From Candidatus Levyibacteriota bacterium (GTDB lineage: Bacteria > Patescibacteriota > Microgenomatia > Levybacterales > UBA12049), in contig CAVRKE010000002.1 in NCBI GenBank assembly GCA_963722305.1, forward strand, positions 447,649-511,648: a DNA stretch of 64,000 nucleotides, in the 5' to 3' direction. Below, one piece after another: positions 10,619 to 21,078 of this stretch. The notes beneath the pieces are model-generated. The model was not told the origin of the DNA and searched no databases. It saw nothing but the letters and a program-made list of their open reading frames with translations. The position numbers and the translations under genes were made by a program. How positions within the stretch are numbered: the first letter of the stretch is position 1; each line of letters opens with the position of its first letter.

Positions 10619-10724
10619 TTGTATCATTCCCCTAGAGAAAGGTATACTGAAAACGGAGAGCCAGCGAAAATAGGTTTCGGGATAGTATTTTTACTATGCC
10701 CACTGTTAGAGCAACTGGTCTTCC
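10619..10724 (+). ncRNA. Candidate bridge/seek RNA of IS110-A, 5' part (interrupted by IS3 at 10725).
   Basis: Contains CGAAAATAGGTT (compare the left target flank GAAATAAGT^T) and CTGTTAGAGC (GTTAGA is the reverse complement of the right target flank TCTAAC). Position and length match IS110-type left-end ncRNAs. Confidence 0.4.
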
Positions 10725-10778
10725 TATAATGGACCCCATAATCTGCACAGTCACCTTAGACTAAGATAGAATAGTTCT

Positions 10779-11075
10779 ATGGATCAAAAAATACGCAGAA
10801 TTCATCCACCGGCATTTAAAGCCAGAGTTGCTCTGGAGGCAATTAAGGAACAAAAAACAATTGCGGAGCTGTCAAGTATGTACGGTGTACATTCAACCCA
10901 AATAACGAAATGGAAACGCCGGGCGTTGGAGATTCTCTCGCAAGGGTTTTCAGAACATCTTATTCAACGGAAACGGGATGACCGTGAGCTGGTACAGGAA
11001 TTGTATCGGCAAATAGGAAGATTAAAAGTCGAAGTAGACTTTCTTAAAAAAAAGATGGGCATCTTCGACGAGTAG
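10779..11075 (+). CDS. IS3-family transposase OrfA (HTH plus leucine zipper).
   Basis: 98 aa: ...FKARVALEAIKEQKTIAELSSMYGVHSTQITKWKRR...LKVEVDFLKKKMGIF. Slippery TTAAAAAAAAG at about 11045-11055 near its 3' end. Confidence 0.85.
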   Translation: MDQKIRRIHPPAFKARVALEAIKEQKTIAELSSMYGVHSTQITKWKRRALEILSQGFSEHLIQRKRDDRELVQELYRQIGRLKVEVDFLKKKMGIFDE

Positions 11076-11178
11076 GGATATCCTTACTCCCGGAGAAATT
11101 GCTCTGCACATTAACAAAACAGAAAGCGTATTACCAAAGAGTATACGGGCTGATCTTCTGGATATTTCCAGATCAAGT

Positions 11179-11916
11179 TTGTACTATCAGCCAAGACCGG
11201 TTAAACCCGAGGCACTCATTTTAATGAACAGAATTGATGAGGTATATACTGCCCACCCTTTTTATGGTTCAAGACGTATGGCAAAAGAGGTTGGTGTTAA
11301 CAGAAAACAGGCACAACGCCTGATGCGTGAAATGGGCTATGAGGCATTGTATCCGAAGCCTAATTTGAGTAAACCCGATAAACAACACATGTTCTATCCG
11401 TATTTACTCAAAGGAGTAGTTGCAGGATATCCAAATCATATCTGGGGCACAGATATTACGTATATTCGGATGAAACATGGGTTTGTATATTTAACTGCCT
11501 TTCTTGATTGGTTTACCAGATTTGTTGTTTCCTGGAAGCTCTCAATTACCCTTGAAACAGACTTTTGTTTTGATGCTGCAACTGAAGCAATTGAGAAATT
11601 CGGAAGACCAACCATTATTAATGAAGATCAGGGATCACAAAATACCGATCATCTGATGACAGATCTCTGGGAAAATCACAATGTCAAAATCAGCATGGAC
11701 TCACGGGGACGGGCACTGGACAATATCTTCACCGAGAGGTTATGGAGGAGTGTTAAATATGAAGAGGTATACTTAAAAGAATACGCTACTGTTTTGGAAG
11801 CAAAAGAAAACATTGAAAACTATTTTTACTTTTACAATTATGAAAGAAAACACCAATCGCTTAATTACAGAACACCGGCTGAAATATATTTTGGAAAGGA
11901 GGAAAACTTAGTCTAA
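11179..11916 (+). CDS. IS3-family transposase OrfB (rve DDE integrase core). Expected to be expressed as an OrfAB fusion through a -1 frameshift.
   Basis: HIWGTDITYIRMKHGFVYLTAFLDWFTRFVVSW...INEDQGSQNTDH...ERLWRSVKYEEVY...YNYERKHQSLNYRTPAEIY (D,D,E triad with the K/R signature). Confidence 0.85.
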   Translation: MYYQPRPVKPEALILMNRIDEVYTAHPFYGSRRMAKEVGVNRKQAQRLMREMGYEALYPKPNLSKPDKQHMFYPYLLKGVVAGYPNHIWGTDITYIRMKHGFVYLTAFLDWFTRFVVSWKLSITLETDFCFDAATEAIEKFGRPTIINEDQGSQNTDHLMTDLWENHNVKISMDSRGRALDNIFTERLWRSVKYEEVYLKEYATVLEAKENIENYFYFYNYERKHQSLNYRTPAEIYFGKEENLV

Positions 11917-11956
11917 GTTTAGCCGTTTTACTGTGTTGACAATGGGGTCCACCTTA

Positions 11957-12108
11957 TCCCGGTAAGTAGAAAGCGATCTATTCCTGGTTGTGCTTGAAGG
12001 CACACATAACCAACAAGCATATCGTAGTACTTCCTAAGGCAAGACTTTTAAGCTCTCCTTTTCTTTCTTCTCTTTCTCTTCTTTCTTTAAGGCTTAAAAG
12101 AAAAGGAG
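11957..12108 (+). ncRNA. Candidate bridge/seek RNA of IS110-A, 3' part, together with an RBS-sequestering hairpin upstream of the transposase start.
   Basis: Contains GCGATCTATTCCTGGTTG (it mirrors the element's own right end GATTCCTGGTC). The hairpin CTCCTTTTCTTT...AAAGAAAAGGAG overlaps the AGGAGG Shine-Dalgarno. Confidence 0.4.
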
Positions 12109-19379: not shown

Positions 19380-19419
19380 TAAGGTGGACCCCATTGTCAA
19401 CACAGTAAAACGGCTAAAC

Positions 19420-20157
19420 TTAGACTAAGTTTTCCTCCTTTCCAAAATATATTTCAGCCGGTGTTCTGTAATTAAGCGATTGGTGTTTTCTTTCATAATT
19501 GTAAAAGTAAAAATAGTTTTCAATGTTTTCTTTTGCTTCCAAAACAGTAGCGTATTCTTTTAAGTATACCTCTTCATATTTAACACTCCTCCATAACCTC
19601 TCGGTGAAGATATTGTCCAGTGCCCGTCCCCGTGAGTCCATGCTGATTTTGACATTGTGATTTTCCCAGAGATCTGTCATCAGATGATCGGTATTTTGTG
19701 ATCCCTGATCTTCATTAATAATGGTTGGTCTTCCGAATTTCTCAATTGCTTCAGTTGCAGCATCAAAACAAAAGTCTGTTTCAAGGGTAATTGAGAGCTT
19801 CCAGGAAACAACAAATCTGGTAAACCAATCAAGAAAGGCAGTTAAATATACAAACCCATGTTTCATCCGAATATACGTAATATCTGTGCCCCAGATATGA
19901 TTTGGATATCCTGCAACTACTCCTTTGAGTAAATACGGATAGAACATGTGTTGTTTATCGGGTTTACTCAAATTAGGCTTCGGATACAATGCCTCATAGC
20001 CCATTTCACGCATCAGGCGTTGTGCCTGTTTTCTGTTAACACCAACCTCTTTTGCCATACGTCTTGAACCATAAAAAGGGTGGGCAGTATATACCTCATC
20101 AATTCTGTTCATTAAAATGAGTGCCTCGGGTTTAACCGGTCTTGGCTGATAGTACAA
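19420..20157 (-). CDS. IS3-family transposase OrfB (copy B).
   Basis: Identical to 11179-11916. Confidence 0.85.
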   Translation of the reverse strand: MYYQPRPVKPEALILMNRIDEVYTAHPFYGSRRMAKEVGVNRKQAQRLMREMGYEALYPKPNLSKPDKQHMFYPYLLKGVVAGYPNHIWGTDITYIRMKHGFVYLTAFLDWFTRFVVSWKLSITLETDFCFDAATEAIEKFGRPTIINEDQGSQNTDHLMTDLWENHNVKISMDSRGRALDNIFTERLWRSVKYEEVYLKEYATVLEAKENIENYFYFYNYERKHQSLNYRTPAEIYFGKEENLV

Positions 20158-20260
20158 ACTTGATCTGGAAATATCCAGAAGATCAGCCCGTATACTCTTT
20201 GGTAATACGCTTTCTGTTTTGTTAATGTGCAGAGCAATTTCTCCGGGAGTAAGGATATCC

Positions 20261-20557
20261 CTACTCGTCGAAGATGCCCATCTTTTTTTTAAGAAAGTCT
20301 ACTTCGACTTTTAATCTTCCTATTTGCCGATACAATTCCTGTACCAGCTCACGGTCATCCCGTTTCCGTTGAATAAGATGTTCTGAAAACCCTTGCGAGA
20401 GAATCTCCAACGCCCGGCGTTTCCATTTCGTTATTTGGGTTGAATGTACACCGTACATACTTGACAGCTCCGCAATTGTTTTTTGTTCCTTAATTGCCTC
20501 CAGAGCAACTCTGGCTTTAAATGCCGGTGGATGAATTCTGCGTATTTTTTGATCCAT
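20261..20557 (-). CDS. IS3-family transposase OrfA (copy B).
   Basis: Identical to 10779-11075. Confidence 0.85.
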   Translation of the reverse strand: MDQKIRRIHPPAFKARVALEAIKEQKTIAELSSMYGVHSTQITKWKRRALEILSQGFSEHLIQRKRDDRELVQELYRQIGRLKVEVDFLKKKMGIFDE

Positions 20558-20611
20558 AGAACTATTCTATCTTAGTCTAAGGTGACTGTGCAGATTATGG
20601 GGTCCATTATA

Positions 20612-20811
20612 AAAGCAAGTATCTGATGATAATATCCGGTTGCTTCGGAACCAATAATTATTCTTTTCCATTTCCCGGTAACTCTTTCCAAGAATTGTTC
20701 GATTGCGCCTTTGGTATTTTCTATGAAGAATTGTTCTTTGACACGAGATGACCGATCGATCCTAACGCCAACAAGACTATCTTTGGCCACATCGATACCA
20801 ATAACTTGCAT
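20612..20811 (-). pseudogene. IS110-B transposase, N-terminal fragment (residues 1-67). Disrupted by IS3 copy B.
   Basis: MQVIGIDVAKDS...HQILAF, then reads through into IS3 sequence. Confidence 0.85.
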
Positions 20812-21078
20812 AATTTTTCACCTCCTTCCTTTGCTCTTAATTAAAGAAGGAAGAGAAAGAGAAGGAAGAAATGGAGTTTGCCAAAAAGGTCTCCCGGTGA
20901 TAATATATCGGTAGGCTTGTTTGTGATCAGCGGCTAAAACCCGCAACCTGGAATCGATCGCTTACATTATCGGGGAGACCAGATGCTAGAACGGTGAGCA
21001 CTTTCTCAAGAAGTCTCAAACGTCGTCACGCTGGCTCTCCGATTTCTATTCTAATCCTTCCTTAAGGTAATGATACAA
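20812..21078 (-). ncRNA. Candidate bridge/seek RNA region of IS110-B copy 3 (identical to 14678-14944).
   Basis: Sequence identity with copy 2. Confidence 0.45.

What the first reader, a model, noticed from the sequence alone, without database searches (positions are those of the whole stretch)
10619..21078. Both IS3 copies sit inside IS110 elements, hitting element A in its guide-RNA region and one copy of element B in its transposase
IS3 copy A (10725-11956, TSD TCC) sits inside the non-coding left end of IS110-A, between the GTTAGA segment and the donor-matching segment. IS3 copy B (19380-20611, TSD AAA) splits the transposase of IS110-B copy 3 after residue 67. The two IS3 copies are 100% identical and inverted relative to each other, 7.4 kb apart. 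That points to very recent transposition. It also sets up the cold-shock, membrane-protein and aldo-keto reductase segment between them for inversion by homologous recombination. The second IS110-B copy is intact. This is nested IS-in-IS insertion in which one element family inactivates another.
Basis: seen in the sequence. Interest (0 to 1): 0.55.

Follow-up and report, generated by a model that had tools for sequence, protein, structure and literature searches.

The report
IS3 copies nested inside IS110 elements
Two identical copies of a small jumping gene (IS3 family) recently landed inside two RNA-guided jumping genes (IS110 family) in a Levybacteria (CPR) chromosome; this nesting is an ordinary kind of event, but one copy splits the IS110 guide-RNA gene exactly between its two functional loops.

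Summary
A 1,232-bp IS3-family element occurs twice, 100% identical and inverted: 10725-11956 (+) with TSD TCC, and 19380-20611 (-) with TSD AAA. Removing copy A and one TSD restores an IS110 element that is 99.92% identical to an uninterrupted copy in another metagenome. Removing copy B restores an element 1 nt different from the intact neighbour IS110-B1.

Both IS110 elements are bridge-RNA (bRNA) elements. Their core is GT, and a two-loop RNA in the left end has guides that covary with the target flanks and donor ends across 17 relatives. IS3-A lies one nucleotide past the target-binding-loop stem, in the linker to the donor-binding loop. Both loops and the transposase ORF remain intact. IS3-B cuts the IS110-B2 transposase in codon 67.

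Split bRNAs work for IS622, and intact copies could complement in trans.

One long-read contig (ERZ25039473) links IS110-A's left piece, IS3 and IS110-B2's 3' piece with mismatched flanks TCC/TTT. That is the predicted inversion product, seen once.

Seven distinct IS3 sites were found across samples, four of them inside other ISs. The host is a Levybacteria (CPR) genome. Verdict: real, recent, and of a known kind; modest interest.

The parts
10725..11956 (+). IS3-family element, copy A (1,232 bp). IRL is TATAATGGACCCCAT... and IRR is ...ATGGGGTCCACCTTA. orfA is 10779-11075. orfB is in the +1 frame, open from about 11040 to 11916. The A8 run is at 11046-11053.
10722..10724 (.). TSD TCC of IS3-A, left copy. 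The right copy is at 11957-11959.
   Evidence: The uninterrupted site in L010 carries a single TCC.
19380..20611 (-). IS3-family element, copy B, 100% identical to copy A. TSD AAA is at 19377-19379 and 20612-20614.
10617..13107 (+). IS110-A, a bridge-RNA element interrupted by IS3-A; 1,254 bp without the insert. Layout:
- core GT at 10617-18 and 13106-07
- left end (LE) 10619-10724 plus 11960-12117
- tnp 12118-13056
- right end (RE) 13057-13105
10655..10723 (+). Target-binding loop (TBL) of the IS110-A bridge RNA:
- basal stem 10655-10664 / 10715-10723
- LTG AAAATAGGT at 10667-10675
- apical hairpin
- RTG GTTAGAG at 10705-10711
11973..12025 (+). Donor-binding loop (DBL) of the IS110-A bridge RNA:
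- basal stem 11973-77 / 12021-25
- LDG ATTCCTGGT at 11980-11988
- apical hairpin 11990-12003
- RDG region 12004-12020
13694..14946 (-). IS110-B1, intact. Layout on the minus strand:
- core GT at 14946-45 and 13695-94
- LE with bRNA gene 14944-14678
- tnp 14677-13730
- RE 13729-13696
18593..21080 (-). IS110-B2, interrupted by IS3-B. Layout on the minus strand:
- LE 21078-20812
- tnp codons 1-66 plus 2 nt, 20811-20612
- tnp 3' part 19379-18629
- RE 18628-18595
- core GT at 21080-79 and 18594-93
11957..19379 (.). The 7,423-bp segment bracketed by the inverted IS3 copies. It can be inverted by homologous recombination. Contents:
- IS110-A DBL, tnp and RE
- cold-shock protein gene 13430-13627
- IS110-B1
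- TMEM260-like/TPR membrane protein 15122-17239
- aldo-keto reductase 17419-18285
- IS110-B2 3' part
   Evidence: Recombinant linkage is seen in L001.
12222..12224 (.). Site of a third IS3 insertion into an IS110-A copy (TSD AAG, inside tnp). It is seen in other samples and is empty in the window.
   Evidence: Left junction in L002. Right junction in L016. Coordinates were read from the sequence.

Best explanation
Two independent, very recent copy-and-paste insertions of one active IS3-family element landed in two resident IS110-family bridge-RNA elements of a Levybacteria (CPR/Patescibacteria) chromosome.

Shown:
- Each IS3 copy carries its own 3-bp target duplication, and excising it in silico restores a normal IS110.
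- IS3-A sits in the linker between the target-binding loop (TBL) and the donor-binding loop (DBL) of the IS110-A bridge-RNA gene. It physically separates the TBL, which stays on the promoter-proximal side, from the DBL and the transposase gene by 1.2 kb.
- IS3-B splits the RuvC-like N-terminal domain of the IS110-B2 transposase.

Inferred:
- B2 can no longer make its own transposase, but it keeps its bRNA gene and both ends. The intact B1 could therefore mobilise it.
- IS110-A has lost the cis-linked single bRNA and the circle-junction promoter drive for DBL and tnp, so it is probably crippled. It is not necessarily dead.
- The excess of IS3 insertions inside other ISs is best explained by survivorship. 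In a compact CPR genome, insertions in selfish DNA are the neutral ones.
- The inverted identical IS3 copies are substrates for RecA-type inversion of the 7.4-kb segment, and this seems to have happened in at least one related population.
- The IS3 makes its OrfAB transposase by slippage on an A8 run, most likely transcriptional, because orfB is in the +1 frame.
For: - Repeat geometry and identity.
- Domains. NCBIfam transpos_IS110 for A and B, and transpos_IS3 over profile 2-368/369 for the one-A-deleted fusion.
- Clean excision: an uninterrupted IS110-A in L010 is 99.92% identical to the restored element. B1 and B2 differ at 1 nt inside the IS.
- IS110 boundaries and core GT come from six independent insertion sites.
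- Guide/flank covariation holds in three guide classes across relatives.
- A four-helix bRNA structure has 95.1% of cells paired against 28-50% in slid controls. Twelve pairs change on both sides, and 0/500 shuffles match.
- IS3 activity: 100%-identical copies at seven distinct sites in several samples. One site is empty in the window, at 38324-38326. Four of the seven are in IS110-A (twice), IS110-B and an IS1595-family tnp.
- Inversion product: L001 joins window 8630-11956 (99.94%) to TTT plus the reverse complement of window 19376 down to 15710.
- Host taxon: ValS is 71-76% identical to Levybacteria MAGs.
- Precedents: the split-bRNA, in-trans bRNA and IS1447 reports.
Against: - No expression or transposition data exist, so every functional consequence is inferred.
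- The inversion rests on one contig from a noisy long-read assembly. That contig has a fold-back at its end. Its IS110-B 3' remnant is only about 89% identical to the window's. Its upstream context also differs, so it is not simply the window's strain inverted.
- The reciprocal junction linkage was not recovered.
- Survivorship versus true target preference cannot be separated with seven sites.
- The RDG-donor match is imperfect, with a one-base bulge.
Confidence: 0.85

Rival explanations
1. Assembly artefact: a collapsed or misplaced repeat put IS3 copies into the IS110 elements artificially.
For: - The IS3 copies are identical and 1.2 kb long. Short-read assemblies of the same populations break at every IS boundary (L004, L009, L012-L014, L017).
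- Linkage across an IS3 copy cannot be verified from the junction sequences alone.
Against: - Both copies have perfect 3-bp TSDs. Their removal restores elements matching independent uninterrupted copies.
- The A-left and B-right junctions are seen independently in L001.
- Contigs from other assemblies stop exactly at the predicted junction bases (L011, L013).
- An artefact could at most affect the orientation of the 7.4-kb segment, not the insertions themselves.
Confidence: 0.03
2. The two inverted IS3 copies and the 7.4 kb between them form a composite transposon that moved as a unit.
For: The geometry, inverted identical IS copies bracketing cargo genes, resembles Tn5/Tn10-type composites.
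Against: - The outer flanks are not a duplication (TCC versus AAA).
- Each IS has its own matching TSD.
- The outer and inner flanks of each copy join into one continuous IS110 element.
- The segment therefore was not inserted as a unit.
Confidence: 0.02
3. This IS3 actively prefers other insertion sequences, or IS110 DNA specifically, as targets. On this view the nesting reflects targeting rather than survivorship.
For: - Four of seven distinct sites lie in other ISs, three of them in IS110.
- Both window copies are in IS110 DNA, with p of about 0.004 under uniform insertion (my arithmetic).
- All three IS110 hits are co-oriented with the host transposase gene.
Against: - The three IS110 hits are at unrelated positions and sequences: LE linker, A tnp codon ~35, B tnp codon 67.
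- The TSDs share no consensus: TCC, TTT, AAG, AAG, CCA, ATT, ATT.
- Three sites lie in ordinary genes.
- Nested IS copies are also common for IS1447 in Clostridium thermocellum.
- Purifying selection in a dense, small genome predicts the same enrichment.
Confidence: 0.12
4. IS110-A::IS3 is still a working element. It would be a natural split-bridge-RNA IS110 of 2.49 kb that carries IS3 as cargo and can still transpose, either on its own or with bRNA from an intact sister copy.
For: - The insertion lies in the TBL-DBL linker. Both loops, the tnp ORF, both ends and the -35/-10 halves of the junction promoter are all intact.
- IS3-A is co-oriented, and no terminator-like site was found between the IS3 ORFs and the DBL.
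- Split bRNAs are active for IS622, and bRNA acts in trans.
- IS110 elements over 2 kb, many with another transposase, are common.
- L011 begins exactly at the IS3-A right junction base. It runs through the IS110-A right end into a different flank, a T4SS pilin gene.
Against: - No contig shows the complete composite at a second locus.
- The start of L011 may only mark a graph branch.
- Recombination between IS110-A copies would give the same picture.
- There is no evidence that the DBL and tnp are transcribed downstream of IS3.
- The split-bRNA data come from engineered IS622 in human cells, not from this element.
Confidence: 0.15

Closest known systems
IS621 / IS622 and other IS110-group bridge-RNA elements (Durrant et al. 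2024, PMC11208160; Hiraizumi et al. 2024, PMC11208158)
   Same: - DEDD/RuvC-like plus Tnp20 recombinase.
- Long LE (264-267 nt) and short RE (34-49 nt).
- A core dinucleotide at both junctions and no multi-bp TSD.
- An LE-encoded RNA with two internal loops whose 5' and 3' sides match the left/right target and the left/right donor.
- -35 in the RE and -10 in the LE, forming TTGACA-N16-TATCAT only across the circle junction.
- Insertion into a short intergenic repeat.
   Different: - The core is GT rather than CT.
- The transposases are shorter (312-315 aa).
- The host is a CPR bacterium.
- One copy has its bRNA gene split by another IS, and another has its recombinase gene split.
- Nothing has been tested biochemically.
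IS1447 (IS120) subgroup of the IS3 family (Liu et al. 2018, PMC6211511)
   Same: - About 1.2 kb with orfA (HTH) and orfB (DDE).
- 3-4-bp direct repeats.
- Imperfect IRs that start 5'-TA instead of TG.
- A poly-A run at the orfA/orfB overlap, with orfB not in the -1 frame.
- Copies often nested in or beside other ISs.
   Different: - The run is A8, not A9. The in-frame mRNA therefore needs one A fewer (or two more), rather than one more.
- The host is CPR, not Firmicutes.
- The phylogenetic relationship was not tested.
Engineered split bridge RNAs of IS622 (Perry et al. 2025, bioRxiv 10.1101/2025.05.14.653916)
   Same: The cut point lies in the linker between the end of the TBL stem and the DBL stem. 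This is where IS3-A sits, one nucleotide past the TBL stem.
   Different: In IS622 two RNAs are deliberately expressed from separate promoters. Here the two halves are separated by a 1.2-kb IS, and it is unknown whether the DBL half is expressed at all.
Expanded, cargo-bearing IS110 loci (Hu et al. 2026, bioRxiv 10.64898/2026.08.14.744561)
   Same: An IS110 element over 2 kb that contains a second transposase inside its boundaries.
   Different: Here the extra DNA is a single IS inserted into the bRNA gene, and mobility of the composite is unproven.
IS-mediated inversions between inverted identical IS copies (textbook homologous recombination; my own knowledge)
   Same: Two identical inverted 1.2-kb repeats sit 7.4 kb apart. 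A contig with exchanged flanks (TCC/TTT) matches the expected product.
   Different: Only one of the two recombinant junction linkages was seen, and it was in a different, partly divergent population.

Membership tests
IS110 family, IS110 group (bridge-RNA elements) | Recombinase with an N-terminal DEDD RuvC-like domain and a C-terminal Tnp20 domain | tested here: met
   PF01548 plus PF02371 in both A and B. NCBIfam NF033542 'IS110 family RNA-guided transposase' scores 200.7 and 182.2 bits against a cut-off of 140.
IS110 family, IS110 group (bridge-RNA elements) | No terminal inverted repeats or multi-bp TSD; a short core sequence at both junctions; sequence-specific targets | tested here: met
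   GT is present at both junctions in six independent sites. Conserved flanks are ..AATA[G/A]|GT|CTCTAACG for A and ..GGACGAC|GT|CTAGAACCT for B, and the same holds in relatives.
IS110 family, IS110 group (bridge-RNA elements) | LE much longer than RE, with the LE encoding a structured RNA that has two internal loops | tested here: met
   LE is 264-267 nt against RE 34-49 nt. Four helices have 95.1% of cells paired and 12 pairs with compensatory change, with 0/500 shuffles matching and slid controls at 28-50%.
IS110 family, IS110 group (bridge-RNA elements) | Loop sequences complementary to target (LTG/RTG) and donor (LDG/RDG), covarying with them | tested here: met
   Three guide classes covary with their flanks:
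- AAAATAG / GTTAGAG
- GACGAC / GTTCTAG
- ..ATAT / CTTCCAG
LDG ATTCC[T/A]GGT or ATTCTAGGT equals the RE end. The RDG match to the LE start is imperfect, with a one-base bulge.
IS110 family, IS110 group (bridge-RNA elements) | Promoter reconstituted across the RE-LE junction of the circular form | tested here: met
   By inspection, the RE carries TTGACA. It is followed by 16 nt (AAAGATTCCTG + GT + TTG) and then TATCAT in the LE. This arrangement is conserved in relatives. This is sequence evidence only.
IS110 family, IS110 group (bridge-RNA elements) | bRNA is expressed, binds the recombinase and directs recombination | not testable with these tools
   No transcript or biochemical data. Rfam 15 gave no match for any family in the window.
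IS3 family | orfA (HTH) and orfB (DDE/rve) that fuse into a full-length OrfAB transposase | tested here: met
   HTH_Tnp_1 and rve/rve_3/HTH_21 are present. The fusion made by removing one A matches NF033516 over profile 2-368/369 with E 4e-79.
IS3 family | 3-5-bp target site duplication | tested here: met
   3-bp TSDs TCC, AAA and AAG have both junctions observed.
IS3 family | Programmed -1 ribosomal frameshift on A6G-type motif; IRs ending 5'-TG...CA-3' | tested here: not met
   orfB is in the +1 frame across an A8 run. The -1 frame hits stops. The ends are 5'-TA...TA-3'. Both deviations are the ones described for the IS1447 subgroup.
IS1447/IS120-like subgroup of IS3 | TA termini, 3-4-bp DR, poly-A slippage run giving OrfAB by transcriptional slippage; phylogenetic clustering with IS1447 | tested here: inconclusive
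   The termini, DR length and an A-run at the overlap are met. The run is A8 rather than A9, so the productive slip differs. No transcript data exist and no phylogeny against IS1447 was made.
Composite transposon (IS-cargo-IS) | A single TSD flanking the whole unit, with inner flanks unrelated to outer flanks | tested here: not met
   The outer flanks are TCC and AAA. Each IS has its own TSD, and its inner and outer flanks join into one IS110.

The most novel reading that the evidence does not exclude
IS110-A::IS3 is a naturally occurring split-bridge-RNA element. The IS3 landed in the one place in the bRNA gene (the TBL-DBL linker) where separation of the two loops is tolerated. The 2.49-kb chimera would then stay mobile, carrying an active IS3 to bRNA-specified sites. 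The move would use its own two half-RNAs or bRNA from an intact sister copy. The hint is L011, where the IS110-A portion downstream of the IS3 junction continues into a different genomic flank.
Probability: 0.12. Interest if true: 0.6.

Novelty: new member of a known kind. Interest (0 to 1): 0.35.

Why it matters
- It documents two previously undescribed bridge-RNA IS110 elements (core GT) and an active IS1447-like IS3 in a Levybacteria (CPR) genome. CPR is a group with small genomes, and this window has a conspicuous local IS load.
- It provides a natural 'experiment' in which a bridge-RNA gene is cut between its two loops. If that copy is still mobile, it would be in vivo support for the modularity seen with engineered split bRNAs. 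It would also show one way in which IS110 elements acquire cargo.
- The inverted identical IS3 copies, and the recombinant contig, show ongoing IS-driven structural variation in an uncultured population.
- None of this changes current understanding. The value lies in a clean, well-delimited example and a set of guide/target pairs.

Tried and rejected
- Rfam 15 at gathering thresholds gave no RNA family anywhere in the window, so the bRNA had to be modelled from relatives.
- An exact search for the IS3 left end in 185,579 species-representative genomes found nothing. IS3 copy number in a complete genome could therefore not be counted.
- Empty-site searches in the window for the reconstructed IS110-B and IS110-A targets, allowing up to 3 mismatches, found none.
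- Exact-protein look-ups for the cold-shock protein and for ORF 9964-10611 were not on record. The reciprocal inversion junction and an IS110-free version of the A locus were therefore not found.
- The AKR, NUDIX and IS256-like look-ups returned only short-read unitigs that stop at IS ends.
- The RNAalifold consensus recovered only the TBL and mis-paired the DBL, because hairpin length variation upset the alignment. A manual four-helix structure was tested instead.
- The composite-transposon and assembly-artefact readings were rejected on TSD logic.
- A -1 ribosomal frameshift for the IS3 was rejected, because the -1 frame is closed.
- No IS3 target consensus emerged from the seven sites.

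
Full report
**1. What is in the sequence**

A self-comparison of the window finds one long inverted repeat, 10725-11957 versus 19379-20611, at 100% identity. Read base by base, the element is 1,232 bp. Its ends are TATAATGGACCCCAT... and ...ATGGGGTCCACCTTA, an imperfect IR of about 26 bp.
- Copy A (10725-11956, + strand) is flanked by TCC/TCC.
- Copy B (19380-20611, - strand) is flanked by AAA/AAA.
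- 7,423 bp lie between the copies.

The element encodes a 98-aa HTH_Tnp_1 protein and an rve-domain protein. A tblastn of all transposases against the window shows exactly two IS3 copies, three IS110 copies, one IS256-like element and one IS481-like element.

**2. The host elements**

Three IS110-family genes (DEDD_Tnp_IS110 plus Transposase_20) sit around the IS3 copies.
- IS110-B1 (13694-14946, - strand) is intact.
- A second copy, B2, is colinear with B1 once IS3-B and one AAA are removed. It then differs from B1 at one base inside the element (V52I).
- IS3-B cuts the B2 transposase inside codon 67, leaving 66 codons plus 2 nt.
- IS110-A (tnp 12118-13056, 55% aa identity to B) has its upstream non-coding end interrupted by IS3-A.
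- Removing IS3-A and one TCC gives a sequence 99.92% identical over 1,269 nt to an uninterrupted copy on an ENA metagenome contig. That copy (L010) reads ...CTGGTCTTCCCGGTAAG... at the site.

Both insertions are therefore clean, simple insertions. They cannot be assembly artefacts.

**3. Boundaries and nature of the IS110 elements**

Six independent insertion sites define the ends. They are three for A (window, L010, L011) and three for B (B1, B2, L001/L010).
- A dinucleotide GT is present at both junctions.
- The left end always starts TTGTATCAT.
- The right end finishes ...TTGACAAAAGATTCC[T/A]G.
- The flanks are conserved per element: ..AATA[G/A]-GT-CTCTAACG for A and ..GGACGAC-GT-CTAGAACCT for B.

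The 1,279-bp B repeat reported therefore includes 9 + 9 nt of shared target.

The left end (264-267 nt) contains sequences that match these flanks in the manner defined for bridge RNAs.
- A 5' loop side equals left target plus core: AAAATAGGT in A, GACGACGT in B.
- A 3' loop side is the reverse complement of the right target: GTTAGAG in A, GTTCTAG in B.
- A second loop has a 5' side equal to the right-end terminus plus core: ATTCCTGGT in A, ATTCCAGGT in B.

A scan of JGI metagenomes with the A+B alignment returned 80 related loci. Among those with recognisable ends, the same correspondences hold. A third guide class covaries as well: in L126, RTG CTTCCAG pairs with RT CTGGAAG, and LDG GATTCTAGGT equals RE GATTCTAGGT.

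Seventeen distinct left ends were aligned. A four-helix structure made of TBL basal stem, TBL hairpin, DBL basal stem and DBL hairpin gave these results:
- 95.1% of cells were paired, against 28-50% when partners were slid.
- 12 pairs changed on both sides.
- 0 of 500 shuffles reached the observed values.

By inspection of the sequence, -35 TTGACA in the right end and TATCAT at the start of the left end lie 16 nt apart only when the ends are joined. This is the junction promoter described for IS621.

These are therefore bona fide IS110-group bridge-RNA elements with core GT. Rfam has no model that detects them.

**4. Where IS3-A sits**

In left-end numbering (1 = window 10619), the 3' strand of the TBL basal stem is nt 97-105. 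IS3-A is inserted after nt 106, and its TSD is nt 104-106.

The insertion is thus one nucleotide into the linker that joins the TBL to the DBL.
- The complete TBL (10655-10723) remains on the left.
- The complete DBL (11973-12025), the transposase ORF and the right end remain on the right.

However, GTTAGAG is the right-target guide, not a match to the element's own end.

**5. Consequences**

Shown: the B2 transposase ORF is destroyed, and the A bRNA gene is no longer contiguous.

Inferred, for B2:
- It keeps its bRNA gene and both ends.
- It lies 4.9 kb from an intact twin, so it is complementable.

Inferred, for A:
- Loss of function is likely but not certain.
- Bridge RNA supplied in trans works for IS621.
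- For IS622, RNAs split in precisely this linker are functional, and even more active than the single RNA.
- IS3-A is co-oriented with IS110-A, and the simple scan finds no terminator-like site between the IS3 ORFs and the DBL.
- Large IS110 loci that contain other transposases are common.

'One family inactivates another' is therefore only partly supported.

**6. The IS3**

orfB is in the +1 frame relative to orfA across an A8 run (11046-11053), and the -1 frame is closed. Removing one A gives a 378-aa protein that matches NCBIfam transpos_IS3 over profile 2-368/369 with E 4e-79.

Four features match those reported for IS1447/IS120, where transcriptional slippage on an A9 run makes the transposase:
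- TA termini.
- 3-bp duplications.
- A poly-A run at the orfA/orfB overlap.
- A shift that is not -1.

Here the productive mRNA would need A7 or A10.

The element is clearly active. Exact-protein look-ups found 100%-identical copies in several ENA and Logan samples with different flanks. The seven distinct sites are:

| Site | Location | TSD |
|---|---|---|
| 1 | IS110-A linker | TCC |
| 2 | IS110-B tnp | TTT in IS orientation |
| 3 | IS110-A tnp, window 12222-12224, both junctions seen | AAG |
| 4 | IS1595-family tnp (PF12760 above cut-off) | ATT (left junction only) |
| 5 | CAP-domain protein gene, window 38324-38326, empty in the window | ATT (left junction only) |
| 6 | Membrane-protein gene | CCA |
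| 7 | Unknown ORF | AAG (left junction only) |

No target consensus emerges. Four of the seven sites lie in other ISs. I attribute this mainly to survivorship in a compact genome, and true targeting remains a minority possibility.

**7. Inversion**

The matching TSDs and the colinear IS110 halves show that the window carries the parental orientation.

Contig_61309 of ERZ25039473 (L001) carries window 8630-11956 at 99.94%. That stretch holds the IS256-like element, ORF 9964-10611, the IS110-A TBL part, TCC and IS3. It is then followed directly by TTT and the reverse complement of window 19376 down to 15710, which holds the IS110-B 3' part, AKR and the TMEM260-like gene. This is the product expected from recombination between the inverted IS3 copies.

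The assembly shows homopolymer indels and fold-back contig ends. It is therefore long-read based, and long reads can span the 1.2-kb IS.

Caveats:
- It is a single contig.
- Its IS110-B remnant is about 89% identical to B beyond the first 95 nt.
- Its upstream context differs from the window.
- Its last 1.1 kb folds back.
- The reciprocal linkage was not recovered.

I rate the existence of both orientations in nature as likely (about 0.6) but not proven.

**8. Context**

The window is chromosomal, carrying DnaG, GuaA, PurA and ValS. Its ValS is 71-76% identical to Candidatus Levyibacteriota/Levybacteria groundwater MAGs, which belong to CPR. Short-read unitigs from ERR11594402 and ERR11748453 are 100% identical to parts of the window and break at IS ends.

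**9. Verdict**

The finding is real and the anatomy is now precise, but the phenomenon (nested ISs, IS-bracketed invertible DNA) is well known. The IS110 and IS3 elements are new members of known kinds. The only mildly surprising point is that the bRNA gene is cut exactly at the module boundary, which leaves open a natural split-bRNA or hitch-hiking chimera. L011 hints at a second locus.

Noticed in passing
window 11046-11053 (and 20283-20290 on the other copy): The IS3 has an A8 run at the orfA/orfB overlap, with orfB in the +1 frame rather than the -1 frame. The in-frame OrfAB needs an mRNA with A7 or A10. Together with the 5'-TA termini, this resembles the IS1447/IS120 transcriptional-slippage subgroup.
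   Followed up: partly
window 13108-13151, 14947-15019, 17370-17396, 21081-21150; L010 3991-4075; L011 1152-1235: A ~75-90-nt intergenic repeat ('R') lies next to the right end of IS110-A copies and the left end of IS110-B copies. A and B appear to hit the same ~25-nt motif (GACGAC-GT-[C]TAGA[A/G]-AC-CT[A/G]TTT). They use two cores 7-9 nt apart, on opposite strands and in opposite orientations.
   Followed up: partly
window 8691-9930: An IS256-like (Mutator-family) IS lies at 8754-9930 (- strand). It is delimited by a 1,177-bp Logan unitig (L180), with IRs GAGACCGTTGCA.../...TGCAACGGTATC. An extra tandem 63-bp copy of its end lies at 8691-8753.
   Followed up: partly
window 5267-6287 and 7648-8664: A 1,021-bp direct repeat (99.5%) carries a 226-aa membrane-anchored ORF. 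It brackets an EamA-like membrane protein gene and a small ORF, so it is a segmental duplication or another repeat-bounded unit.
   Followed up: no
window 38324-38326 (inside ORF 37664-38380, CAP-domain protein): In sample SAMEA9560740 (L008) the same IS3 is inserted here. The site is empty in the window, so this is an insertion polymorphism in an ordinary gene.
   Followed up: partly
L011 1-2097 (Logan ERR11748453): The unitig starts exactly at the TCC after IS3-A. It runs through the IS110-A right end without a break into a flank absent from the window (R-like repeat, then a T4SS pilin gene). This suggests IS110-A, possibly the IS3-bearing copy, at a second locus.
   Followed up: partly
L001 7275-7975: The IS110-B 3' remnant next to IS3 in contig_61309 is identical to B for the first ~95 nt. 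After that it is only ~89% identical, mostly through substitutions plus frameshifts. The neighbouring AKR region is nearly identical. This looks like a mosaic or gene-conversion pattern and is not explained.
   Followed up: no
window 10725-11956, 19380-20611; L002/L016: All three IS3 insertions into IS110 elements are co-oriented with the host transposase gene. Six of the seven sites overall are co-oriented with the disrupted ORF. This is not statistically significant.
   Followed up: no
window 36525-37589: An IS481-family transposase gene (NCBIfam NF033577, below cut-off) adds to an unusually high IS density for a CPR genome. Seven IS copies occupy about 10 kb of the 64 kb.
   Followed up: no
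window 61181-63064: A VirB4-like conjugal transfer ATPase (CD1110 family) lies near the end of the window, and toxin-antitoxin genes occur in related contigs. Part of the region may belong to an integrated conjugative element.
   Followed up: no
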